DNA from: a virus
Taxonomy: Duplodnaviria; Caudoviricetes
Length of the DNA: 64,000 nucleotides
Direction: 5' to 3' (one strand)
Virus record (IMG/VR): IMGVR_UViG_3300017963_000032
Coordinates: 1 to 64,000 of that record
In this document: piece after piece, positions 21,999-62,133 of the stretch
How positions within the stretch are numbered: position 1 is the first letter of the stretch
Layout: each line of letters begins with the position of its first letter
Translations under genes and position numbers: made by a program
Notes under the pieces: generated by a model
Databases searched by the model: none
Told to the model about the DNA's origin: nothing
What the model saw: the letters and a program-made list of their open reading frames with translations, nothing else

Positions 21999-22346
21999 AT
22001 GAAATTAGCAAAAATTATAGAAACAGACGTTAGGAGTAATTTCCAAGAAGCAGAGATGCAAGTCAACAAACACATGGTTGAACTGCAAAAGAATGGTTGT
22101 GAGATTCTAGAATCTCCAAGGATTATTGAGAAGAGTTCAGGATTCTTGATAGGAGTTATTTATTATGATGACCCTAAAATGGTTCCTGAAGAAGACAAAC
22201 CAGAAGAGACAGGCGGTGAAGAAGAGGCAGCTGAAGCTGAAACAGAAGATGATGCTCCAGCTGAAGAGGAAGAGGCTCCTGAAGAAGAAGCCGAAGAAGA
22301 AACAACAGAAGAAGAAAAGCCTGAAAAAGAAGAAAAGAAAAAATGA
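21999..22346 (+). CDS. Hypothetical protein with acidic tail
   Basis: GGAGG RBS; Glu-rich C-terminus. Confidence 0.6.
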   Translation: MKLAKIIETDVRSNFQEAEMQVNKHMVELQKNGCEILESPRIIEKSSGFLIGVIYYDDPKMVPEEDKPEETGGEEEAAEAETEDDAPAEEEEAPEEEAEEETTEEEKPEKEEKKK

Positions 22347-23022: not shown

Positions 23023-23185
23023 GTGCTCTCATTGCGGTAGCACACTCATAGTTGAGAAGGGGGACGAAGTCCAGAAGAACGAGGCGGTCGTTGGGCTTCC
23101 CCCTAACTCACTATTCGTATCTTGCATAGTTTGCAAAGCGCCAGTGAGTCTCGGGGTTGAAGAATGGAAGAAGAAAAAACAGTAA
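22991..23185 (+). CDS. Small Zn-finger protein
   Basis: CSHC...CIVC. Confidence 0.55.
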   Translation: MEKMKAELKIRCSHCGSTLIVEKGDEVQKNEAVVGLPPNSLFVSCIVCKAPVSLGVEEWKKKKQ

Positions 23186-24417
23186 TGATTTTTGGAGATA
23201 GATGGGAAAGTACAACAGGCTATGCTAGAATGGGCAAGATGCTTGCAAGAGATTTATCTAAAGACCATAAGGTTATTTATGTTGGGGGCAATTATGGGTG
23301 TGACCCTACAGATATAGAAGTTGTAACAAAAGAAGGAGTCATTGTAGTTCCAATGTATCCTCCTGAAGGAAGCAACGAATACCTGATTCGATTAATGACT
23401 TATCTTAACAAGTACTCTCCAGATGTTTTGTTTGTCATAGGAGATGCAATAATAAGAGAATCATTACAACATCTTAATTTGATAAATTATAATGATAAAA
23501 TAAAAAAGATATTCTATTCTTTTGTTGATTCAGAGGGCCTTCCATCGGCAGGCATAGAATTCATGAATAAGATGGATATAATTATTCCTCCTTCAAAGTT
23601 TGGCGAAGACCAGATGAAAAGGGAAGGGTTCGAAGTAACAGAGCCAGTATTGTGCCCTGTTGACAAGACTGTCTTTAAGCCGATAAAGGATTTGGCGAAA
23701 AAGAATGTTAGGCGCAAGTATAACTTTGGCAAAGAGCACTTCATAGTGTTCAATTATATGAGGTTTCAAAGACGGAAGAACCCTTTCCACATTCTGGAAG
23801 CTGCAATAAAAGTAGGACTTGAACACAAACATGTGAAGTTCTTTTTCCACTGGGTTAAATACAATGATTATCCTCACATGAATGCTATTGATTATCTTGA
23901 TAGAGTAATTCCTAAAAGGATAGATTTACCTGAAGGATTCAAATGGCAGGATGTAATTTGCATCCATGATAAACCATTGGAGTACGAAGAAGTTGCAGAA
24001 TTAATTGCTGCGTCAGACCTTTGCTTGAGTGCAAGTAGTGGGGAAGGATTTAACTTGATGATTCCAGAGAGTTTGTATTCTCATGTACCAATTCTTGTAT
24101 CAGACAATAGCACAGCAGTTGAAATAACAAATGGGAGAGCGGGCTTGATTGAAGCACCACACCCTATTGATGCAGGTTATGGAACTTGGCATTACGCTTC
24201 TGATGCAGACAATATTTATTCAGAGCTGAATTTGGCAATAACTGATAAAGAACATTACAATTTAATGAAGGAAGATGCTATAAAATATAGGGAAGAGTTT
24301 GATTTAGACTCTGAGACTTGGATAAAAAAGATGAGAGGGATAATAGATGGGAGAACTGACACCGCAGATGGAAAAGATGCTGAAGGACCTGAAGCCAAAG
24401 AAGAAAAAGAAAGTTAA
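23164..24417 (+). CDS. GT-B (GT4-like) glycosyltransferase
   Basis: TGYARM, RKN, GEGFNL...E motifs. Confidence 0.85.
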   Translation: MEEEKTVMIFGDRWESTTGYARMGKMLARDLSKDHKVIYVGGNYGCDPTDIEVVTKEGVIVVPMYPPEGSNEYLIRLMTYLNKYSPDVLFVIGDAIIRESLQHLNLINYNDKIKKIFYSFVDSEGLPSAGIEFMNKMDIIIPPSKFGEDQMKREGFEVTEPVLCPVDKTVFKPIKDLAKKNVRRKYNFGKEHFIVFNYMRFQRRKNPFHILEAAIKVGLEHKHVKFFFHWVKYNDYPHMNAIDYLDRVIPKRIDLPEGFKWQDVICIHDKPLEYEEVAELIAASDLCLSASSGEGFNLMIPESLYSHVPILVSDNSTAVEITNGRAGLIEAPHPIDAGYGTWHYASDADNIYSELNLAITDKEHYNLMKEDAIKYREEFDLDSETWIKKMRGIIDGRTDTADGKDAEGPEAKEEKES

Positions 24418-32394: not shown

Positions 32395-32403
32395 ATACTA
32401 ATA

Positions 32404-32679
32404 ATGCAATGTTGCTATTGTAAGAGCAAGAAGGCGCATCTGCTCTTTGAAACGAAGAAAGAATCATACTATAAGTGTAATACTTGTGGTACGATGTTCT
32501 CAATCAAACGTGGTGAAGATATGAAAGACAAATCTGGCCGTAAAATGCATTATTATCATCCAACATTTGATGCAAGTTATTGTACAAGATGTACAAATAA
32601 AAATTTTTTAACACATAATATTGATAAAGTTACCTGCATTCTCTGCAAAAACAAGATTGAGAAGGCACTTCAAGGATAA
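32404..32679 (+). CDS. Zn-finger protein
   Basis: Four CxxC pairs. Confidence 0.5.
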   Translation: MQCCYCKSKKAHLLFETKKESYYKCNTCGTMFSIKRGEDMKDKSGRKMHYYHPTFDASYCTRCTNKNFLTHNIDKVTCILCKNKIEKALQG

Positions 32680-32983
32680 ATCATATATACAAATGTATAT
32701 CACATCCATATATCATTTTCATATTCAGTGGAAATAGAGGTCCACTGGAAATAAAGGCGGTTAAGTGCTCAAAGGATTGAATTTCTTAATTCTGGCCCCT
32801 CCTATTGGGATGCTGACCCCCCCTTATTTCTTGTGGAACTCTATTATATTATATATAGATTAAGCATATATTATATTATATTATATAAGAACTACATGAG
32901 AATTGAATATCACATCTCCAGTGGAAATGAAGGGGGGTGGGTTATATATTAGTATATACTAATCATATATACATTTGTATATC
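32679..32983. other. Candidate archaeal-type replication origin (ORB-like boxes flanking an AT-rich unwinding element)
   Basis: CTCCAGTGGAAATGAAGGGGGG 32916-32937 (+); GTTCCACAAGAAATAAGGGGGGG 32817-32839 (-); two more boxes at 32724-32760; (TATAT)n tract 32840-32890; 23-bp near-identical palindromic repeat at both ends. Confidence 0.65.
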
Positions 32984-33069
32984 TTAATGAAATGTAACCG
33001 AAAAGTATTTATATTACATATACTTTACACTCAAAATTAAGCATTAATCAATTAAACGAGGCGGAAAAT

Positions 33070-33255
33070 ATGGAATCGTGGAATAAACTCGTAGGAAAAG
33101 AAGTTGTAGTAATATACAATGACAATGGCAGGCATCCAATAAAGAAAATAGGATTTCTGCTGGAGCATGACTTACACAACTTTGCACTACAATCTGAAAA
33201 GAAAGACCCTGAAATTCTGAACAAGGCACAAATCATAAGGGTGGTGCCAAAATGA
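33070..33255 (+). CDS. Small protein, possibly Sm/SH3-like fold
   Basis: LVGKEVVVIY...G.L pattern; BRE-TATA upstream. Confidence 0.4.
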   Translation: MESWNKLVGKEVVVIYNDNGRHPIKKIGFLLEHDLHNFALQSEKKDPEILNKAQIIRVVPK

Positions 33256-33611
33256 AACAACAAAAATTAATCAGACTTAGTGAAGATGTTCTCAAAGACA
33301 TTCAACTAAATGACTGCATGGATAACTTCTCTGACTGGGTAGAAAGAGCCTATAGAAATGAGTTCATGACCATGAAGAACAAGAAAGAGCAACTGGAGAA
33401 AATCAAAGCTGAAGCAGAAAGACTAGAGAAAGAAGTTGCATTGATGAAAGAAGAAGATGAGAAGAGAATGTCAAAGAGTGACAGAGTTTTCTGCAACATC
33501 TGCGGAGAGTCAGCAATAGATGAAGTCAAAATTAATGGACTAATCACTTGCAAGCAATGTTACTTGACAAGAAGTGAAGAGCTCAGAAAAAAGAGAAGGG
33601 ACGGACAATGA
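33252..33611 (+). CDS. RHH-like regulator with coiled coil and Zn finger
   Basis: KLIRLSEDVL...FSDWVERA; CNIC/CKQC. Confidence 0.5.
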   Translation: MKQQKLIRLSEDVLKDIQLNDCMDNFSDWVERAYRNEFMTMKNKKEQLEKIKAEAERLEKEVALMKEEDEKRMSKSDRVFCNICGESAIDEVKINGLITCKQCYLTRSEELRKKRRDGQ

Positions 33612-40765: not shown

Positions 40766-41407
40766 ATGATAAAAGAAATCATAGACAAGCAAGCGCTTGC
40801 ACTTAATGAAAAGAACAGAGCAGGAAGAAGTCCAACAAGGAATTACTTTTATGCTTCAGAAGCTGGCAAATGCCACAGAGCAATATTCTTTAGTATGACT
40901 GGAGTGAAAGGAAAGCCTAAAGACGCTAGGACAATCAGAATATTTCAGAACGGAGACTCAGTTCATGAAAGACTCTGCAAGTATTTGAAAGAAGCAGGCG
41001 TTCTAGTTTGTGAAGAGAAAGAGATGAACAATCAATCTCCAGAGATTCATGGAAGAGTTGATGCAATCGTTGAGCTTAACGGAGAGCAGATTCCTTTGGA
41101 GTTCAAGAGCGCAAATATCAGAACTTTAGCTCAACCATATCCTGAACATGTAAAACAGATAATGCTCTACATGCACGTAGGAAATTACAAGAAAGGAATG
41201 CTCGTTTATGAATCAAAGCAGACTCAGGAAATATTTGAGTTCGAGATTGTTTATGATGAAGAGCACGCAAAGAAAATCCTAGAATCATTCAAGGAAGTTG
41301 AGGAGTGCTACAAGAAGAACGAGACTCCAAAAAGAGCAGATGTAATGGTCAGAGCAAAGTACCCATGTACTTACTGTGATTATGCAGACGAGTGCTGGAA
41401 GGAATAA
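40766..41407 (+). CDS. cas4: Cas4-like PD-(D/E)xK exonuclease (stand-alone)
   Basis: ASEAGKC; GRVDA; EFKS; Q...Y; CTYCDYADEC Fe-S ligands; no CRISPR array in window. Confidence 0.8.
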   Translation: MIKEIIDKQALALNEKNRAGRSPTRNYFYASEAGKCHRAIFFSMTGVKGKPKDARTIRIFQNGDSVHERLCKYLKEAGVLVCEEKEMNNQSPEIHGRVDAIVELNGEQIPLEFKSANIRTLAQPYPEHVKQIMLYMHVGNYKKGMLVYESKQTQEIFEFEIVYDEEHAKKILESFKEVEECYKKNETPKRADVMVRAKYPCTYCDYADECWKE

Positions 41408-42395: not shown

Positions 42396-42612
42396 TATAG
42401 ATTTACAATGGTTGCTTGGATTACCAGCATACATTAGGTGTCCAAAGTGCAAGGAGAAAACAAGAAGCTGGTTTGATGATTATGACATTGACTGCGGAGA
42501 ACCTCAATCTAAAGATGGAGTCATGACATTGGATGTACAATGTGACCATTGTGAGGAAGAGATACAGTTCAAAGTAGAAATAAAACAAAAGGAGAGTGAT
42601 TCAGATGAGTAA
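42385..42612 (+). CDS. Zn-finger protein
   Basis: CPKC...CDHC. Confidence 0.55.
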   Translation: MGHNIDLQWLLGLPAYIRCPKCKEKTRSWFDDYDIDCGEPQSKDGVMTLDVQCDHCEEEIQFKVEIKQKESDSDE

Positions 42613-43366
42613 GTTAGTATTCGCAGACATTGACTTTTTTAAGAAAGCAATGAAATCAATAAGTGTTTTGTTATTGGAAGCAACAATAGAGCTTGACCAA
42701 GAAGGTATGAGAATCAAAAGCATGGACCCTGCAAACGTGGCCATGGTTGATTTCTACATCAGGGCTGATACTTTTCCAGAGTATGATGTGAAAGAAGAGG
42801 GAGAAAAGCACACATTCAAGGTTGAGACTTTGCTAGCATTCTTGAAAAGAGCTAATGCAAAAGACATAGTGACTCTAGAGTTTGATGAGAAGATGCACGT
42901 AAAGATTAAGAGCGAGAACAATAAAGAGTTCGGAACTACATTGATTGGTATTGAACCAGACAAAACTCCAGACACTGTCAAGTTAGATTTTGATTTTGAA
43001 ACAACAATGCCTACAGAACAATTCAATTCAGTATGCAATGATATTGCAACCATGGGTGACAGTGTGGTGCTTGTTGGAGATAAGGAAAGGATTGTCATGA
43101 GGGCAGAATCTGACAAGATGGTTGATAGCTTTGGAGAGATTAAATTGTCAGCTGATAACAAGGTAAAGATGAAGGAAGGAGTTGAAGCTGCAAAGGTCAA
43201 GCTGAGTTCGGAGTATATCAACAAGATTGTAGACTCAATCAAGAAGATAACAGAGAATGTTAAGATTCAGTTTGGAAATGATTATCCAATACTATTGACG
43301 TATTCAATGGCAGATAGAGCTTCTATAAGCTTCTTGGTTGCTCCAAGGGTGGACAATGAGGGATGA
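42605..43366 (+). CDS. pcn: PCNA sliding clamp
   Basis: SMDPANVAMVD; FLVAPRV C-terminus; about 253 aa. Confidence 0.92.
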   Translation: MSKLVFADIDFFKKAMKSISVLLLEATIELDQEGMRIKSMDPANVAMVDFYIRADTFPEYDVKEEGEKHTFKVETLLAFLKRANAKDIVTLEFDEKMHVKIKSENNKEFGTTLIGIEPDKTPDTVKLDFDFETTMPTEQFNSVCNDIATMGDSVVLVGDKERIVMRAESDKMVDSFGEIKLSADNKVKMKEGVEAAKVKLSSEYINKIVDSIKKITENVKIQFGNDYPILLTYSMADRASISFLVAPRVDNEG

Positions 43367-50560: not shown

Positions 50561-51445
50561 ATGGCAAAAGAAAAATTCAGAGAGAAACTACATCTCTCAC
50601 CAAAGAACAAGAAACAACTTGAAGTTATCAATGAAATTATAGATGAGTACGCAGCAGAAGGTTACAAGCTAACATTAAGGCAGCTTTATTACCAGTTAGT
50701 GTCCAGAGACATAATCCCTAACAAACAATCAGAGTATGCAAAACTTAGCAACTTACTTGTTAAAGGAAGGATGGCTGGTGTTGTTGACTGGGAAGCTATC
50801 GAAGACAGAATCAGAGTACCATTTATTCCTTACTGGGTACATGGAGTTAAGGATGCAATAGATGACACAATCAGTCAGTACAGATTAGACAGGCAAGACG
50901 AACAAGAAGTTTACATAGAACTCTGGGTAGAGAAGGACGCATTGTCAGGAGTGCTGAAGAGAATCACATCACACTATCATATCAATTTGATGGTTAACAG
51001 AGGGTACAGTTCTTGCACTGCAATGCATGATGCATACAAAAGATTCAGAACACAAGCTATAGCCAATGAGAAGAAGATTGTAATACTGTATCTTGGAGAC
51101 CACGACCCAAGCGGTCTGGATATGATTAGAGATATAAGGGACAGGTTATTTGAGTTCGGAGTTGATGTAACAGTCAAACCAATAGGACTTACTATGGCTC
51201 AGATTAAGCAATACAATCCACCACCAAACCCTGCAAAGATTACAGACCCAAGGGCAAAGGATTATATCGAAGAGCACGGAAACACTTCATGGGAAGTTGA
51301 CGCTCTGAATCCTAAAGTCTTGCACCAGTTAGTAAGAACAAATGTCGAAGGCATGATTGACATGGGCTTGTTCGAAGAGATGCTAGAGAAAGAGAAAGAG
51401 CACAAGAAAGAACTGGAGAGACTGCGTGAGGAAAGCAAAAAATGA
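50561..51445 (+). CDS. Topo VI-A/Spo11-like TOPRIM protein
   Basis: TLRQLYYQL; WVEKDAL; RGYSS; YLGDHDPSG; WEVDAL. Confidence 0.8.
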   Translation: MAKEKFREKLHLSPKNKKQLEVINEIIDEYAAEGYKLTLRQLYYQLVSRDIIPNKQSEYAKLSNLLVKGRMAGVVDWEAIEDRIRVPFIPYWVHGVKDAIDDTISQYRLDRQDEQEVYIELWVEKDALSGVLKRITSHYHINLMVNRGYSSCTAMHDAYKRFRTQAIANEKKIVILYLGDHDPSGLDMIRDIRDRLFEFGVDVTVKPIGLTMAQIKQYNPPPNPAKITDPRAKDYIEEHGNTSWEVDALNPKVLHQLVRTNVEGMIDMGLFEEMLEKEKEHKKELERLREESKK

Positions 51446-57302: not shown

Positions 57303-57848
57303 ATGGCAACACCAGCATTCGAGAAGAGCAAGAACAAGAAGAGGATATTCGAACTACTTGGCAAAGTCAACAGGAAAGACTTCACCTTCAAGAAATGCAG
57401 GATTACAATAAAGAAAGAACTCGGAGAAGATTACAACGAGAAAACTCTTCAGTACTGGAGAAGCAAGTTCTTAACACCAGAGCAAAGACTCCCACCTAAA
57501 GTAGCACAGGTAAGGATGAAAAAGCTCGATGAAACAGTGGATGTTTACAAAGAGAGCATAAGATTATTTAACATGCAGAAAGCACGAGTTGAAAAAGAAG
57601 TAGAAGCAGAAAATCAATGTCAAAGACTCCTACCATCCGTGAGGGAAGAAATCAAGGTTGCAGGAGTCCTTCTTGAGGGTATCAAGAACCTAGAGTTTGA
57701 GCTTGGAATAAAAGAGAAGAAAACCAACAACGGAGTTGCTGGAGACCTCAATTATTACATCCTCGACACTATGGAAAAAGTAAAGGCCGCCAAAAAGGAA
57801 ATAGATGCAGAAGACAAAAAACTTGGAAGTCGAACCCGAATTAGTTGA
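57303..57848 (+). CDS. Probable terminase small subunit
   Basis: Helical protein directly upstream of terL. Confidence 0.55.
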   Translation: MATPAFEKSKNKKRIFELLGKVNRKDFTFKKCRITIKKELGEDYNEKTLQYWRSKFLTPEQRLPPKVAQVRMKKLDETVDVYKESIRLFNMQKARVEKEVEAENQCQRLLPSVREEIKVAGVLLEGIKNLEFELGIKEKKTNNGVAGDLNYYILDTMEKVKAAKKEIDAEDKKLGSRTRIS

Positions 57849-59487
57849 AGACTGGTTCCAAAGGCCCGAACTATTCTTTACAGCGGTGACTGGACTTAAA
57901 TCTTGTAGATACCAGACTGTATTTCTCAGAGACAAATCACAGAAGATAGCAATGCGTGTAGGCAGGCAAGGAGGCAAAAGCACAGTAGTTGCAGTAAGAA
58001 CAGTCTTCAAAGCCATGATGAACAATGGACACTTTAGTTTATTAATCAGCCCAACACTAGAGCAGACAGGAATTCTATTCAGAAAGATATTAAGGATTGT
58101 TAACACCAACCCTTGGATTAAACAAAGAATCAAGGTCCAGACTCAGACAAGGATTTATTTCAAGAATGAGAGCTGGATTTATACAACAAGTAAAGATACA
58201 GTGAGAGGTCACACACCTGATGAGCTCATAGTTGACGAGGCAGCATTCGTACCTGATGAAGTTTATGAAGCAGCTGAGCCTTCTCTTGCAGCAACATTCG
58301 ATACAGGAGGAAGCGTTGTTTATATCAGCACTCCTTTTGGTATGAGGGGAAAATTCTATCAGGCATTCCAAGACAGTTCATTTAGCACATATCACGTTCC
58401 AAGCACAGAGATTGCTCACGTGAGTCAACAGTACTTAAAAGACAAGGAAGCCAAATGTTTAGAGAATGAATTCAGGCAGGAGTATCTAGCCGAGTTCGTT
58501 GAGGACGTTGACACTTACTTCCCAAGGCCACTAGTTATGAGCGTGGCTGGAGATATTGAAGAAGTTAAAGAACCAAGGGAAGGATTCCTTTATTTCTTAG
58601 GAGTGGACATTGCAAGGTATGGAATGGATGAAACAGTATTCATAGTCTTAGAAGTCGACCCAACCACTAGCACTGGACAAGTTGTTGAGATAACAAGAAC
58701 AGCAAAGAAACCAACAACAGATACTATGGGAAGGATTAAAGAGCTCCATAAGAAATGGAAGTTCAGGACTATTTACCCAGACGAGACAAGTCTTGGTGGA
58801 GGAGTTGTTGATGTACTGCTTGAAGCTAAGCTCCCAGTCAAACCTATATCTTTCGGTGCAAGAGCTGAGAACAGGAAAGAGTCAAACAAGGAGTACATGT
58901 ATAAAAGTCTGAAATGGCTCATGGAAAACAAGAAAATCAAAATACCTCACTATCATAAATTAATCAACCAGCTGGTAGAGTTAAGAGAAGACTACACTGC
59001 TTCAGGCAGACTGATGGTCAAGCACCCAGAGAGAGGCCATGACGATTATCCTGATGCTTTAGCTCTAGCTTGCTTAGCTCTGGCCAAGACAAGAGACATG
59101 CCAAAGGCAGCGTTCGGAGCACTAGGAAAACCCGGAATGGTATCCTATAAGAAGGAAGAGTCTGAAGGTCAGAAGTTCATCAACAAGAGAGGAAAGGTAA
59201 AAAACAAAGACATCAAGATTGTCAGGCAGGACAAGGTCGAAGAGAATATTGACTGGGAAAAGATAGATGAAGTAATCAAAGAAGAAGCTGCAAGCGGTGT
59301 GGTCACTTGCAATATTTATGGTAAGATTGTAACCCCTCTTTATTGCTGGGGATGTTACAAGGAGCAATGCGATAATTTTAAAAGAGTAAGCCAGATAGCT
59401 CTTAGAAAAGGAATAAAGAAAGAGCAGCTCTGGATGAGACAAACAAGATACAAGAGGGGGGAACATGTCACAAAAAAAACAGATTAG
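57805..59487 (+). CDS. terL: Terminase large subunit
   Basis: GRQGGKS; LIVDEAAF; STPFG; LGVDIA; HDDYPDAL. Confidence 0.95.
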   Translation: MQKTKNLEVEPELVEDWFQRPELFFTAVTGLKSCRYQTVFLRDKSQKIAMRVGRQGGKSTVVAVRTVFKAMMNNGHFSLLISPTLEQTGILFRKILRIVNTNPWIKQRIKVQTQTRIYFKNESWIYTTSKDTVRGHTPDELIVDEAAFVPDEVYEAAEPSLAATFDTGGSVVYISTPFGMRGKFYQAFQDSSFSTYHVPSTEIAHVSQQYLKDKEAKCLENEFRQEYLAEFVEDVDTYFPRPLVMSVAGDIEEVKEPREGFLYFLGVDIARYGMDETVFIVLEVDPTTSTGQVVEITRTAKKPTTDTMGRIKELHKKWKFRTIYPDETSLGGGVVDVLLEAKLPVKPISFGARAENRKESNKEYMYKSLKWLMENKKIKIPHYHKLINQLVELREDYTASGRLMVKHPERGHDDYPDALALACLALAKTRDMPKAAFGALGKPGMVSYKKEESEGQKFINKRGKVKNKDIKIVRQDKVEENIDWEKIDEVIKEEAASGVVTCNIYGKIVTPLYCWGCYKEQCDNFKRVSQIALRKGIKKEQLWMRQTRYKRGEHVTKKTD

Positions 59488-59941
59488 GCCGGGAGTTATT
59501 GAGGTAGATTCCATAATTGGAAGAGTTAATCAAGAAGAAGAAAAAACACCAGATATTCCGAAGTTATTCCCAAAGAAGGATGAAACAGAGGAGATAGTTG
59601 AGAAAGCATTCAGCAAGCACCCATTATACGAGAAACCACAAAGATTAAAAGTATCTTTAAATACTCTAGCCTCTATTCTTAGACTCAAGGGCAAGAATCT
59701 CTTGACGCTTACCAAGTTTTACACTGGGAAAATAATCAAGCCCATACGGGACGCATCAGAAATACCAGTATTCATCGTCATACACGGACTCTTAGGATGG
59801 AGCGTACTGATAGCATTTTTAGGTTTTCAAATTAGCAAGCTGTCAATAGTACATATCATCGCTTGTGGAAGTGTGTATTACTTTATTTATGACTTATTAA
59901 CCCTTCTTAAAACGAAGAGGCAGGAGATAATTAAACGATGA
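59465..59941 (+). CDS. Membrane protein
   Basis: Two C-terminal hydrophobic helices, between terL and portal. Confidence 0.55.
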   Translation: MSQKKQIRPGVIEVDSIIGRVNQEEEKTPDIPKLFPKKDETEEIVEKAFSKHPLYEKPQRLKVSLNTLASILRLKGKNLLTLTKFYTGKIIKPIRDASEIPVFIVIHGLLGWSVLIAFLGFQISKLSIVHIIACGSVYYFIYDLLTLLKTKRQEIIKR

Positions 59942-62133
59942 AGCTGATAAGAGAAAGATTCAACAGGCCCGTAGCACTAAAAGAAAGGAGTTCTATAGTA
60001 GGTTCTATCGGTAATTTCGACAGGGACATCTACAGAGAAAGACTCTGGTCGCCTCATGAAGAAATGATTGAGTGCGTTAAGATGTACAATGAGAATTCTC
60101 TTGCTCAAGCAGCAATAAACACTATGAAAGAGTTCATCACTGGAGGGCAAATAAAAGTTATAGCTGATGATGAAAGAACTGCAAGAGCAGGCACAGCTTA
60201 TATCGAAAGCATAGGGATGCTTGACTTTACCAGTGAAATTGTCGAGAACACAATCAAGACAGGAAATGGTTATCTTGAGTGTGACTTTGACCGAATGACC
60301 AAGTTAAGAAAGAGATTCTATCCAATCGCTGATTCTTCAAGGATGTACTTGAACATTGACATTTATGGAAATGCAAAGAAAACTCAAAAGCTCGTAATGA
60401 GAAAAGGCGAGTACAAATACATAACAGTTGATAATGATGATGAATTCTTCCTACAACAAGTAGACCCTTCACAAATGATACCTCAAGCTAAGTGGTATGA
60501 TATGAGCTATTATTTTGGGAGTATGCTTAGGAGATTTAGAATTTACGCAATCCCAATTCACAGAGATAAGATGATTCATTTCAAGCTCAACATAGGGGAT
60601 ACTGGAGTGTACGGACGAAGCTATATGGCTAGTGCATTGAACGATAATCTTGCTTTAAGACAAGTCGAAGAATCACTGGCCACTATAGCCAAGTTCAAAG
60701 CTGTTCCTAGAGATGTCCTACAATATGGTGATGAGAACATGCCAGCAGAAAGTGAAGAGCTGGATGAGTTCATAGCTTACATGGAAAGTCTTGAAAAGGA
60801 CGAGACAGCTATTATTAACAAGCCAATCAAGAGAGAAGTTCTTTCTTATGCAGGCCAAGATATAAACCTTGATTATGTTATTCAGCACTTGAGAAAGAAA
60901 ATCATTGCAGGTATTGCTCCTGATTTCATGATGGGTCTTGGAGACCAAGTCAACAGGGCAACAGCCGGGCAAGCTTTACTCGCTTACGTTCTTGCTATTT
61001 ATTCAAAGAGAAGATTGTTCTTGAAACCATTAGAGAGATACATACTTTATCCATGGCTATTGCATCATGGGTTTAAAGTGGACAATGTACATTTAGAGTT
61101 CGGACAGTTAGACTTTGAAACAAAATCAGAAAAAGAATCAAGAGTATTGCAATCATGGAATAGCAATGTCTTAACACTCAACCAAACACTGGAAGAGCTA
61201 GGCAAGCCACAGATTGGAAAAGAAGGTGATGTTTACAGCCTAGACTGGCAGAACCAAATGATGCCAGATTTAATGGGTGGCTTCGGTGATTTTTCGCAGC
61301 CAGAGGAAGGAATGTCAGATTTCTCAACCACCCCCCAAAAAACAACTTCCGATGATGAGGAAGTTTCCGAAGCCAATTCTTATACTGAAAGTTTGACTAA
61401 GTTCCCTCATAATCCTACAGGTACTAAAACATTGCAGAAGCAAATGGCAGTCATGATAAGAAGCGCTTACAGGGAGAGATTGAAAGAAATCCTTTCAACC
61501 CTAGAGAAGAACAAGAAGTTATACGAAGAAAAGATAATGACTGAAGCAACCATAGGTGTTGAGGCCATTGACAATATTCTTTCTAAGATGATTGGACTTA
61601 ACTTGTTATTGAAGCCAATAATAAACGAGTTCATCAAGAAAGCTTATGACAAAGGAAACAGCGCAGTTGCAAGAGTCTTGAATGTTGGAACATTCGTTCC
61701 TTATGAGAAGAGACAACTTCAAGCATTGCAGAAGAACGCATTCGGTTACATCAAAGATTTCGGAGAGGAAAAGAAAGAAGAGCTCAGAGGAATCCTAACT
61801 GAAGGGGTAAGCCAAGGAGACAGAGTAAGCGAAATATCTAAAGAGATAAAGCAATCCTTCAATACCGTAGCTTGGAAGAGCGAGCAAATAGCTAGGACAG
61901 AAATGATAAGGACATACAACGAAGCAGCAGTTCAAGCAACAAACCAGTCAGGAGTCACAAAAGAAGTCAGATACGTTACTGCTCATGATGACAGGGTTTG
62001 CCCAGAGTGCAGGCCTAATCATATGAAGATATTCAAAACAAACCAATTAAAAGAAAACGTGAACAAACCGCCACTTCATCCTAATTGCAGGTGCGGTCTT
62101 GTACCATACGTTGGACCAAAGGAGGAAGAATAA
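59938..62133 (+). CDS. Portal protein fused to MuF/SPP1 gp7-like head domain
   Basis: IIHFK...YGRS portal motif; C-terminal IARTE...DDRVCPEC...PPLHPNCRC. Confidence 0.88.
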   Translation: MKLIRERFNRPVALKERSSIVGSIGNFDRDIYRERLWSPHEEMIECVKMYNENSLAQAAINTMKEFITGGQIKVIADDERTARAGTAYIESIGMLDFTSEIVENTIKTGNGYLECDFDRMTKLRKRFYPIADSSRMYLNIDIYGNAKKTQKLVMRKGEYKYITVDNDDEFFLQQVDPSQMIPQAKWYDMSYYFGSMLRRFRIYAIPIHRDKMIHFKLNIGDTGVYGRSYMASALNDNLALRQVEESLATIAKFKAVPRDVLQYGDENMPAESEELDEFIAYMESLEKDETAIINKPIKREVLSYAGQDINLDYVIQHLRKKIIAGIAPDFMMGLGDQVNRATAGQALLAYVLAIYSKRRLFLKPLERYILYPWLLHHGFKVDNVHLEFGQLDFETKSEKESRVLQSWNSNVLTLNQTLEELGKPQIGKEGDVYSLDWQNQMMPDLMGGFGDFSQPEEGMSDFSTTPQKTTSDDEEVSEANSYTESLTKFPHNPTGTKTLQKQMAVMIRSAYRERLKEILSTLEKNKKLYEEKIMTEATIGVEAIDNILSKMIGLNLLLKPIINEFIKKAYDKGNSAVARVLNVGTFVPYEKRQLQALQKNAFGYIKDFGEEKKEELRGILTEGVSQGDRVSEISKEIKQSFNTVAWKSEQIARTEMIRTYNEAAVQATNQSGVTKEVRYVTAHDDRVCPECRPNHMKIFKTNQLKENVNKPPLHPNCRCGLVPYVGPKEEE

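What the first reader, a model, noticed from the sequence alone, without database searches (positions are those of the whole stretch)
32679..32983. Virus carries an archaeal chromosome-style origin with ORB boxes
Seen: CTCCAGTGGAAATGAAGGGGGG (+) and GTTCCACAAGAAATAAGGGGGGG (-) sit inverted around an AT-rich tract, with two more TCCA(G/C)TGGAAAT-like boxes upstream. A 23-bp repeat containing ATATACA-N2-TGTATAT brackets the region. Known: the archaeal ORB consensus is GTTCCAGTGGAAAC plus a G-string, bound by Orc1/Cdc6 to load MCM. No Orc1, MCM, primase or polymerase is recognisable in this window, but PCNA is. Inference: the virus hijacks the host initiator. The bracketing palindrome could bind the RHH protein at 33252.
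Basis: partly seen in the sequence, partly recalled or inferred. Interest (0 to 1): 0.7.

Follow-up and report, generated by a model that had tools for sequence, protein, structure and literature searches.

The report
Host-type replication origin in archaeal virus
A complete 79-kb tailed archaeal virus with no initiator, helicase, primase or polymerase gene carries a cellular-style archaeal replication origin whose best box is letter-for-letter the origin box of one group of sediment Thermoplasmata. It therefore probably borrows that host's Orc1/Cdc6 to start copying its DNA.

Summary
The longest non-coding gap of this complete, terminally repeated 79,464-bp virus (32680-33069) holds four origin recognition boxes (ORBs). 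Two of them are inverted around a 79-bp, 82% A+T tract, which is the least stable duplex of the whole genome. This polarity, with G-strings pointing away from the AT tract, is the same as at orc1-adjacent cellular origins.

Box 4 (32917-32945) is identical over 26-29 nt to an element found in only one GTDB order of Thermoplasmata. There it occurs about twice per genome, directly beside the PolD small-subunit gene.

The viral genome has PCNA but no recognisable Orc1/Cdc6, MCM, PolB, primase or integrase. The best reading is a host-Orc1-dependent origin (about 0.68). This is inferred from sequence only.

- The RHH label for the gene at 33252 is not supported.
- No close relatives were reachable, so conservation is untested. 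A distant TerL relative and a few other viral contigs do carry their own ORBs.
- GC skew is uninformative and no CRISPR spacer confirms the host.
- This scan has noted similar initiator-less ORB origins in other archaeal virus genomes (unchecked AI notes).
- I found no published description in the searched library.

The parts
32404..32679 (+). Upstream gene: 91-aa Cys-rich (zinc-ribbon-like) protein of unknown function. Its stop codon abuts the origin region.
   Evidence: ORF list. No Pfam family. Only a weak PHROG of unknown function.
32679..32701 (+). Left copy of the 23-nt direct repeat, containing palindrome P1 (ATATACAAATGTATAT). Candidate site for an unidentified dimeric DNA-binding protein.
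   Evidence: The TATATAC/GTATATA heptamer has 4 of its 8 genome copies in this gap.
32724..32740 (+). Box 1: mini-ORB TTCAGTGGAAAT, 1 mismatch to the core, weak G-string.
32741..32760 (+). Box 2: mini-ORB TCCACTGGAAATAAAGGCGG, 1 mismatch to the core.
32817..32839 (-). Box 3: ORB GTTCCACAAGAAATAAGGGGGGG. The core is degenerate but the G7 string is full. It forms the left arm of the inverted pair.
   Evidence: (I4). Similar CCACAGGAAAT variants occur at orc1-adjacent origins L025 and L031.
32840..32914 (.). A+T-rich tract between the inverted ORBs: the candidate duplex unwinding element.
   Evidence: 79-nt gap at 82% A+T. Least stable 75-bp window of the 79-kb genome.
32917..32945 (+). Box 4: perfect ORB TCCAGTGGAAATGAAGGGGGGTGGGTTAT. 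It is identical over 26-29 nt to the chromosomal ORBs of one Thermoplasmata order.
32948..32963 (.). Palindrome P2 (ATTAGTATATACTAAT), carrying the same TATATAC motif.
   Evidence: (I16).
32961..32983 (+). Right copy of the 23-nt direct repeat, containing palindrome P3 (ATATACATTTGTATAT).
33008..33015 (+). TTTATATT, a TATA-box-like element about 55 nt upstream of the next start codon. It is the likely promoter of the downstream genes (inference from sequence only).
   Evidence: Read directly. No tool for archaeal promoters was available.
33070..33255 (+). First downstream gene, 61 aa, unknown function.
33252..33611 (+). It is better described as a long helix or coiled coil followed by a C-terminal zinc ribbon.
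42596..43366 (+). Virus-encoded PCNA sliding clamp, the only recognisable replisome part. It is at most 35% identical to any protein found.

Best explanation
The 32679-33069 gap is the virus's replication origin, built like a cellular archaeal oriC and fired by the host's Orc1/Cdc6.

Proposed sequence of events (all inferred):
1. Host Orc1/Cdc6 binds the perfect box 4 and the G-string-rich box 3. These face away from each other across the AT tract. Mini-ORBs 1 and 2 add cooperative binding.
2. The bound initiators load host MCM at the 79-bp AT tract, which is the easiest place in the genome to melt.
3. Host primase and polymerases copy the DNA, with the viral PCNA as clamp.
4. Recombination, possibly involving the Cas4-like nuclease at 40766-41407, yields concatemers. 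The terminase then cuts these into units with terminal repeats.

The three TATATAC palindromes that bracket the boxes are probably sites for an unidentified viral DNA-binding protein. That protein could control origin firing or the adjacent promoter.

Shown here: the anatomy, its match to cellular origins, the lineage-specific identity of box 4, and the absence of recognisable initiator and replisome genes. Inferred: binding, unwinding, initiation, and the identity of the host.
For: 1. Four ORB boxes cluster in the longest non-coding gap. No such cluster appeared in 300 random genomes.

2. Box 4 fits published consensus sequences, for example Ca. M. intestinalis ORB3 GTTCCAGTGGAAATGA-AGGGGT and the archaeal consensus CTTCCAGTGGAAACGAAAGGGGT (PMC4153887).

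3. Its 20-mer hits 43 places in 185,579 species genomes, 41 of them archaeal. It lies less than 250 bp from orc1/cdc6 in L025, L031, L033, L043 and L045, and about 1.7 kb from it in L006 and L037.

4. The polarity (-)ORB, AT tract, (+)ORB is the same as in L025, L031, L033, L045, L015 and L029. The AT tract is the least stable duplex of the genome.

5. The 26-mer is exact in 10 species, all belonging to one GTDB order. In that order 24 of 39 genomes have it with at most 2 mismatches, usually as two inverted copies 3-5 kb apart. All 13 JGI metagenome contigs that hold it show the same host locus, directly beside the PolD small-subunit gene. Each of the five genomes checked has a single orc1/cdc6 gene.

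6. The complete viral genome has no Cdc6_C, MCM, PolB, Prim-Pol or PriS. Pfam scans of nearly all ORFs of 200 aa or more found only PCNA as a replisome part.

7. Other viral contigs repeat the theme. L003/L004 has a TerL 33% identical to this one and an inverted ORB pair around a 329-nt, 71% A+T gap. G040 is a complete 63-kb virus with one ORB plus an AT tract and no Cdc6_C.
Against: - There is no experimental or read-depth evidence of initiation.
- Cumulative GC skew rises steadily through the site with no turn. Nearly all genes are on one strand, so skew says little either way.
- No close relative was available to test conservation.
- In the order with the identical box, the two chromosomal ORBs are solitary and 3-5 kb apart, not a tight pair around an AT tract. 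No ORB lies beside that order's orc1. The viral layout is therefore not a copy of that host's layout.
- The TGGGT extension occurs in looser form in other Euryarchaeota, and no CRISPR spacer links virus and host. The host call therefore rests on the ORB alone.
- Several viral proteins remain of unknown function, including ones of 214, 298, 979, 1053 and 1200 aa. An unrecognised initiator cannot be excluded.
Confidence: 0.68

Rival explanations
1. The boxes do bind host Orc1/Cdc6, but as a sink or switch rather than an origin. They would titrate the single host initiator away from its roughly two chromosomal ORBs to stall host replication, or use Orc1 as a transcription factor for the promoter at about 33008. 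Viral DNA synthesis would then start by recombination or at another site.
For: - The candidate hosts have only one orc1 gene and about two strong ORBs per genome, so many viral copies could out-compete them.
- A TATA-like element and the start of a gene block lie directly downstream.
- Origin-independent replication is known in archaea (PMC5663688, listed).
- There is no skew turn at the site.
Against: A sink or operator does not need the canonical inverted polarity around the least stable duplex of the genome. The same ORB-AT-ORB layout recurs in another tailed-virus fragment. No alternative origin or initiator was found.
Confidence: 0.15
2. The gap is mainly a viral regulatory hub run by a virus-encoded protein that binds the three TATATAC palindromes. 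On this reading the ORB boxes are a passenger picked up from host DNA and have little function.
For: The palindromes are specific to this gap and bracket it. Small zinc-ribbon proteins are encoded on both sides.
Against: - Only the ORB itself, at most 40 nt, resembles host DNA. No flanking host sequence came along.
- Four boxes of different sequence stand in a functional layout.
- The chance of such a cluster is negligible.
Confidence: 0.07
3. The 29-nt identity with the host chromosome is an attachment core for integration of the virus at the host ORB locus.
For: Exact 26-29 nt identity between virus and chromosome is the size of a typical att core.
Against: - There is no integrase in the genome.
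- The host copies are a conserved inverted pair flanking housekeeping genes in all contigs, and no viral genes lie next to them.
- The direct terminal repeats point to a lytic packaging style.
Confidence: 0.02

Closest known systems
Cellular archaeal oriC-type origins bound by Orc1/Cdc6 (Pyrococcus oriC, Sulfolobus oriC1, Methanomassiliicoccales ORB pairs; PMC4153887)
   Same: - ORB made of a dyad core plus a G-string.
- Inverted ORBs with G-strings pointing away from an AT-rich unwinding tract.
- Extra mini-ORBs.
- Non-coding location.

   Different: - It sits in a virus genome with no orc1/cdc6 gene anywhere.
- The ORB-to-ORB gap is short, 79 nt against 144-251 nt in the cellular examples seen.
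- It is bracketed by TATATAC palindromes that the cellular loci lack.
The paired ORBs beside the PolD small-subunit gene in one GTDB order of Thermoplasmata (MAGs AUK202, AUK247, AUK146, AUK114, HyVt-387, B78_G9 and others)
   Same: Identical over 26-29 nt to box 4, and 88-90% identical over 39-40 nt. The variant GAAATAAAGG found in some of these genomes resembles boxes 2 and 3.
   Different: - The host copies are solitary boxes 3-5 kb apart with housekeeping genes between them, not a tight pair around an AT tract.
- The upstream flank differs: ATATAAACTT in the hosts, ATATCACATC in the virus.
Haloarchaeal viruses and plasmids that carry their own orc1/cdc6 (e.g. BJ1 ORF16, PMC2194725), and the Ori-Finder ORB hits in pleolipovirus HHPV4 (PMC5867852)
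   Same: These are mobile elements that use the Orc1/ORB system for replication.
   Different: The Orc1-bearing elements bring their own initiator, and this virus does not. The HHPV4 ORBs are program predictions in a 15-kb pleomorphic virus, not a canonical ORB-AT-ORB layout matched to a host lineage.
Archaeal viruses reported to lack ORBs (Aeropyrum AGV1, bioRxiv 2021.04.21.440749; Thermococcales viruses, PMC12934983)
   Same: Archaeal viruses for which authors asked whether host-type ORBs are present.
   Different: Those studies report no ORBs and propose other routes, such as no autonomous replication or a viral MCM with a DNA-binding domain. Here canonical ORBs are present.
Bacterial phage and plasmid origins with host DnaA boxes (from my own knowledge: P1 oriR, pSC101, F)
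   Same: A mobile element places binding sites for the host chromosomal initiator in its own origin.
   Different: Those replicons also encode their own Rep initiator. The domain of life and the protein family are also different.

Membership tests
Archaeal Orc1/Cdc6-dependent origin (ORB-DUE-ORB) | ORB element: dyad core TCCAGTGGAAA(C/T) followed by a G-string | tested here: met
   Box 4 has no mismatch and a G6 string followed by TGGG. Box 3 has a G7 string. Boxes 1 and 2 have 1 mismatch each. The consensus comes from PMC4153887. The 20-mer is found in 41 archaeal genomes.
Archaeal Orc1/Cdc6-dependent origin (ORB-DUE-ORB) | At least two ORBs in inverted orientation flanking an A+T-rich unwinding tract | tested here: met
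   Boxes 3 (-) and 4 (+) are separated by a 79-nt gap at 82% A+T, the least stable duplex of the genome. The polarity is the same as at orc1-adjacent cellular origins.
Archaeal Orc1/Cdc6-dependent origin (ORB-DUE-ORB) | Lies in non-coding DNA | tested here: met
   It is the longest non-coding gap of the 79-kb genome.
Archaeal Orc1/Cdc6-dependent origin (ORB-DUE-ORB) | Linked orc1/cdc6 gene (common but not universal) | tested here: not met
   There is no Cdc6_C match in any frame of the complete genome. The candidate host order also separates orc1 from its ORBs.
Archaeal Orc1/Cdc6-dependent origin (ORB-DUE-ORB) | Nucleotide skew turns at the origin | tested here: inconclusive
   Cumulative GC skew rises steadily through 32.8 kb. 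About 99 of 119 ORFs are on the + strand, so coding bias dominates the skew.
Archaeal Orc1/Cdc6-dependent origin (ORB-DUE-ORB) | Conserved in related replicons | tested here: inconclusive
   No close relatives were reachable. A distant TerL relative, L003/L004, has its own ORB pair.
Archaeal Orc1/Cdc6-dependent origin (ORB-DUE-ORB) | Orc1/Cdc6 binds the boxes, and replication starts there | not testable with these tools
   This needs EMSA or footprinting and marker-frequency or 2D-gel mapping. Only assembled contigs of the two runs that hold the virus are on hand.
Ribbon-helix-helix (CopG/Arc/MetJ) protein, for the ORF at 33252-33611 | Match to an RHH family profile, or an N-terminal strand-helix-helix fold | tested here: not met
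   There is no Pfam or PHROG RHH hit. The AlphaFold2 single-sequence model shows helix 5-74 followed by a zinc ribbon. The only hint is an Atlas cluster with RHH_1 at score 0.79, which is a lead only. The N-terminus has low confidence, so a dimer-dependent strand is not excluded.
Integrase attachment site | A tyrosine or serine integrase is encoded by the element | tested here: not met
   There is no Phage_integrase match in the genome. No viral genes lie beside the host copies.

The most novel reading that the evidence does not exclude
Initiator-less archaeal tailed viruses may generally carry exact, lineage-specific copies of their host's origin box.

If so, the ORB sequence would work as a host barcode. 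Here it points to one order of sediment and hydrothermal Thermoplasmata.

The multi-copy viral origin could also out-compete the host's roughly two chromosomal ORBs for its single Orc1/Cdc6. Origin mimicry would then both replicate the virus and shut down host chromosome replication.
Probability: 0.25. Interest if true: 0.75.

Novelty: new member of a known kind. Interest (0 to 1): 0.55.

Why it matters
How archaeal viruses without replication genes start DNA synthesis is largely unknown. Published surveys I could read report either virus-encoded Orc1 or MCM, or an absence of ORBs.

This is a large virus whose only replisome gene is PCNA. It carries a canonical ORB-AT-ORB origin that is letter-perfect for one host lineage. 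That gives a concrete, testable model of initiator hijacking, using recombinant Orc1 from the MAGs and a 300-bp fragment.

It also gives a new kind of host-prediction signal for uncultured archaeal viruses when CRISPR spacers fail.

As a by-product, the analysis locates the likely chromosomal origin of an uncultured Thermoplasmata order: paired ORBs beside the PolD DP1 gene.

Tried and rejected
**Searches for relatives**
- The search for related loci with the 119-aa ORF and with PCNA found no relatives in IMG/VR.
- TerL homologues are at most 50% identical. IMG/VR relatives are at most 36% identical and sit on short contigs.
The longer contigs of the best TerL relatives (P0003, P0011, P0012) could therefore not be read and conservation could not be tested.

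**Independent host evidence**
- BLAST of all four 20-kb pieces of the virus against the 39 species genomes of the candidate host order found no CRISPR spacer. The short hits checked (G029, G005, G018, G036) are not in repeat arrays.
- A TerL search in 197 genomes of the class gave only four distant matches, at 26-30% identity.
- PCNA homologues are at most 35% identical and give no host clue.
- I could not name the host order.
- The sequencing-run look-up says only sediment and seawater or marine-sediment metagenomes, possibly the source samples themselves.

**Other checks on the region**
- Rfam on 32400-33300 gave only chance hairpin matches.
- The host loci share nothing with the viral gap beyond the ORB.
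- The RHH claim was tested and not supported.
- The att-site idea was rejected because there is no integrase.
- GC skew is uninformative.
- The bacterial promoter/terminator scanner and complex prediction were not used, because they do not fit the question.

Full report
**What the replicon is**

The window is the first 64,000 bases of a 79,464-bp virus record with 123-bp direct terminal repeats, rated complete. About 99 of 119 ORFs lie on the + strand.

It is a tailed virus:
- large terminase at 57805-59487
- Mu-F-like head protein at 59938-62133
- HK97-type capsid protein and tail tube protein

Several genes point to an archaeal host:
- PCNA at 42596-43366
- PTH2-type peptidyl-tRNA hydrolase
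- a Cas4-like nuclease
- Ro60
- 16 tRNA genes found by ARAGORN
- many sugar and glycosyltransferase genes at 23-40 kb

Two public runs hold it, a sediment metagenome and a seawater/marine-sediment study.

**The observation**

The gap 32680-33069 is the longest non-coding stretch of the genome. It contains, from left to right:
- a 23-nt repeat holding the palindrome ATATACAAATGTATAT (32679-32701)
- mini-ORB 1 (32724)
- mini-ORB 2 (32741)
- a 56-nt spacer
- ORB 3 on the minus strand, with a G7 string (32817-32839)
- a 79-nt tract at 82% A+T
- ORB 4 (32917-32945)
- a second palindrome (32948-32963)
- the second copy of the 23-nt repeat (32961-32983)
- a TATA-like TTTATATT (33008), about 55 nt before the next start codon

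Across the whole genome, core matches with at most one mismatch number four, and three of them are here. None of 300 Markov-random genomes produced such a cluster. The AT tract is the least stable 75-bp duplex window of the genome. The second least stable window lies just right of ORB 4.

**Are these really ORBs?**

Box 4 agrees with published ORBs, for example GTTCCAGTGGAAATGA-AGGGGT in Ca. Methanomassiliicoccus intestinalis and the archaeal consensus CTTCCAGTGGAAACGAAAGGGGT (PMC4153887).

Its 20-mer occurs 43 times among one genome per species of 185,579 prokaryote species. About one hit is expected by chance. Of the 43, 41 are in archaea.

In Theionarchaea, Archaeoglobus, a Promethearchaeota MAG and two others, it lies within 250 bp of an orc1/cdc6 gene. 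In two Thermoplasmata it lies about 1.7 kb from one.

At those cellular loci the recurring layout is a minus-strand ORB, an AT-rich gap of 144-251 nt (62-78% A+T) and a plus-strand ORB, so the G-strings point outward. The viral boxes 3 and 4 have exactly this polarity. The odd core of box 3 (CCACAAGAAAT) resembles the CCACAGGAAAT variants at the left arm of the origins in L025 and L031.

**A lineage-specific match**

Beyond the 20-mer, box 4 continues GTGGGTTAT.

The 26-mer is exact in 10 species genomes, and all of them belong to one GTDB order of Thermoplasmata. The MAGs are named AUK202, AUK247, AUK146, AUK114, HyVt-387, B78_G9 and several 'binchicken' bins. Five loci match over 29 nt.

Within that order of 39 species, 24 have the element with at most two mismatches. 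It usually occurs as exactly two inverted copies 3-5 kb apart.

In the 241-million-record JGI metagenome collection, the 26-mer occurs on 13 contigs. All of them show the same host locus. One ORB lies directly after a 500-aa gene with DNA_pol_E_B and Metallophos domains, which I read as the PolD small subunit. The pair encloses hflX, a CobW-type GTPase, a TraB-family protein and a radical-SAM protein.

Origins next to replication genes are classical in Euryarchaeota (my own knowledge: Pyrococcus oriC beside cdc6 and polD). I therefore read this locus as the chromosomal origin of the order. That is an inference.

Each of the five genomes checked has one orc1/cdc6 gene, on another contig and with no ORBs beside it.

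BLAST of the virus against these genomes returns the ORB as the top non-trivial hit, extending to 39-40 nt at 88-90% identity. Nothing else in the gap matches. The G+C content of these host loci (0.32-0.43) brackets that of the virus, about 0.39.

**No initiator or replisome of its own**

Six-frame family searches of the complete genome find no Cdc6_C, MCM, PolB, Prim-Pol, PriS or integrase.

Pfam scans of nearly all ORFs of 200 aa or more found only PCNA as a replisome part. One 294-aa protein at 50561-51445 matches a PHROG labelled 'DNA topoisomerase', but it has no Pfam family and sits in the RNA-repair block.

The large unknown proteins (979, 1053 and 1200 aa) lie in the structural modules. 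They have no hits in Pfam, PHROGs or, for the two largest, the PDB.

**Mechanism proposed**

Host Orc1/Cdc6 binds boxes 4 and 3, with boxes 1 and 2 assisting. It loads host MCM at the AT tract. Host primase and polymerases then copy the genome with the viral PCNA as clamp. Concatemers are cut into terminally repeated units by the terminase.

The TATATAC palindromes are specific to this gap: 4 of the 8 genome copies of the heptamer lie here. They probably bind an unidentified viral protein.

It models as a long helix plus a zinc ribbon.

**Weak points**

- Nothing shows binding or initiation.
- GC skew has no turn at the site, but coding bias dominates it.
- No close relative could be examined.
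- The host order's own ORBs are solitary and far apart, so the viral layout resembles canonical origins of other archaea more than that of its presumed host.
- A looser GGGGTGGGTG extension is seen in other Euryarchaeota.
- No CRISPR spacer supports the host call.
I could not confirm or exclude that. The only direct signal I found points to Thermoplasmata.

**Recurrence and novelty**

Exact ORB-plus-G-string matches are rare in IMG/VR: 9 stretches among 2.9 million contigs. They are not unique to this virus.
- L003/L004 encodes a TerL 33% identical to this one. It has an inverted ORB pair around a 329-nt, 71% A+T gap.
- G042 has a related TerL and one ORB.
- G040 is a complete 63-kb virus with one ORB and an AT tract between a zinc-ribbon gene and an RHH-like gene. 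It has no Cdc6_C.

The scan's notebook lists about 21 notes of initiator-less ORB origins in other archaeal virus-like genomes. These are unchecked AI notes.

In the paper library I found no description of such an origin:
- AGV1 and the Thermococcales viruses are reported to lack ORBs.
- BJ1-type viruses bring their own Orc1.
- HHPV4 has only Ori-Finder ORB hits.

I therefore file this as a new member of a known kind, an Orc1-type origin, in an unusual carrier. Its extra value is the exact match to one host lineage.

Noticed in passing
L147-L158, L014, L018, L019 (host Thermoplasmata loci): In the candidate host order, the 3-5 kb segment between the two inverted ORB repeats is found in both orientations relative to the PolD small-subunit gene. 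In L147, L149, L152, L018 and L014 the order is DP1-ORB-hflX...rSAM-ORB. In L148 and L158 it is DP1-ORB-rSAM...hflX-ORB. This is as expected if the 37-60-nt inverted ORB repeats recombine. In three species the two ORBs are direct rather than inverted (G006, G007, G010).
   Followed up: partly
L136 2620-2800 (= G040 about 23140-23320): A complete 63-kb terminally repeated IMG/VR virus, unrelated to this one, has one canonical ORB (GTTCCAGTGGAAACAGAGGGGGGT) followed by an AT-rich tract. These lie between a zinc-ribbon gene and a gene whose N-terminus looks RHH-like. It has no Cdc6_C anywhere.
   Followed up: partly
L003 1731-2083 and L004 3222-3574: Two near-identical small viral contigs from different samples encode a TerL 33% identical to this virus's. 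They carry a textbook inverted ORB pair with G9/G8 strings around a 329-nt, 71% A+T gap.
   Followed up: partly
window 50561-51445: A 294-aa protein with no Pfam family matches phrog_6247, labelled 'DNA topoisomerase', at E 1e-90 over its full length. It sits beside RlaP in the RNA-repair block, so the label may be misleading.
   Followed up: no
window 57805-59487: The large terminase is 560 aa, whereas its homologues are 430-460 aa and cover only about 72% of it. It therefore carries an extra segment of roughly 100 aa. Some homologues carry intein/LAGLIDADG domains (PF14528, PF14890).
   Followed up: no
window 22185-22344: A short stretch of a virion-module gene gives many 70-80% DNA matches in genomes of the candidate host order. 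It is probably a low-complexity linker of the kind found in archaeal surface proteins.
   Followed up: no
L001 5632-13042 (genome 65632-73042): Two ORFs of 1053 and 1200 aa lie between the head-assembly genes and the capsid gene. They have no hit in Pfam, PHROGs or PDB sequences.
   Followed up: partly
window 32697-32706 and 32907-32916: The decamer ATATCACATC occurs twice in the gap. One copy lies directly after palindrome P1, 17 nt before box 1. The other abuts box 4. It takes the place of the ATATAAACTT that precedes every host ORB.
   Followed up: no
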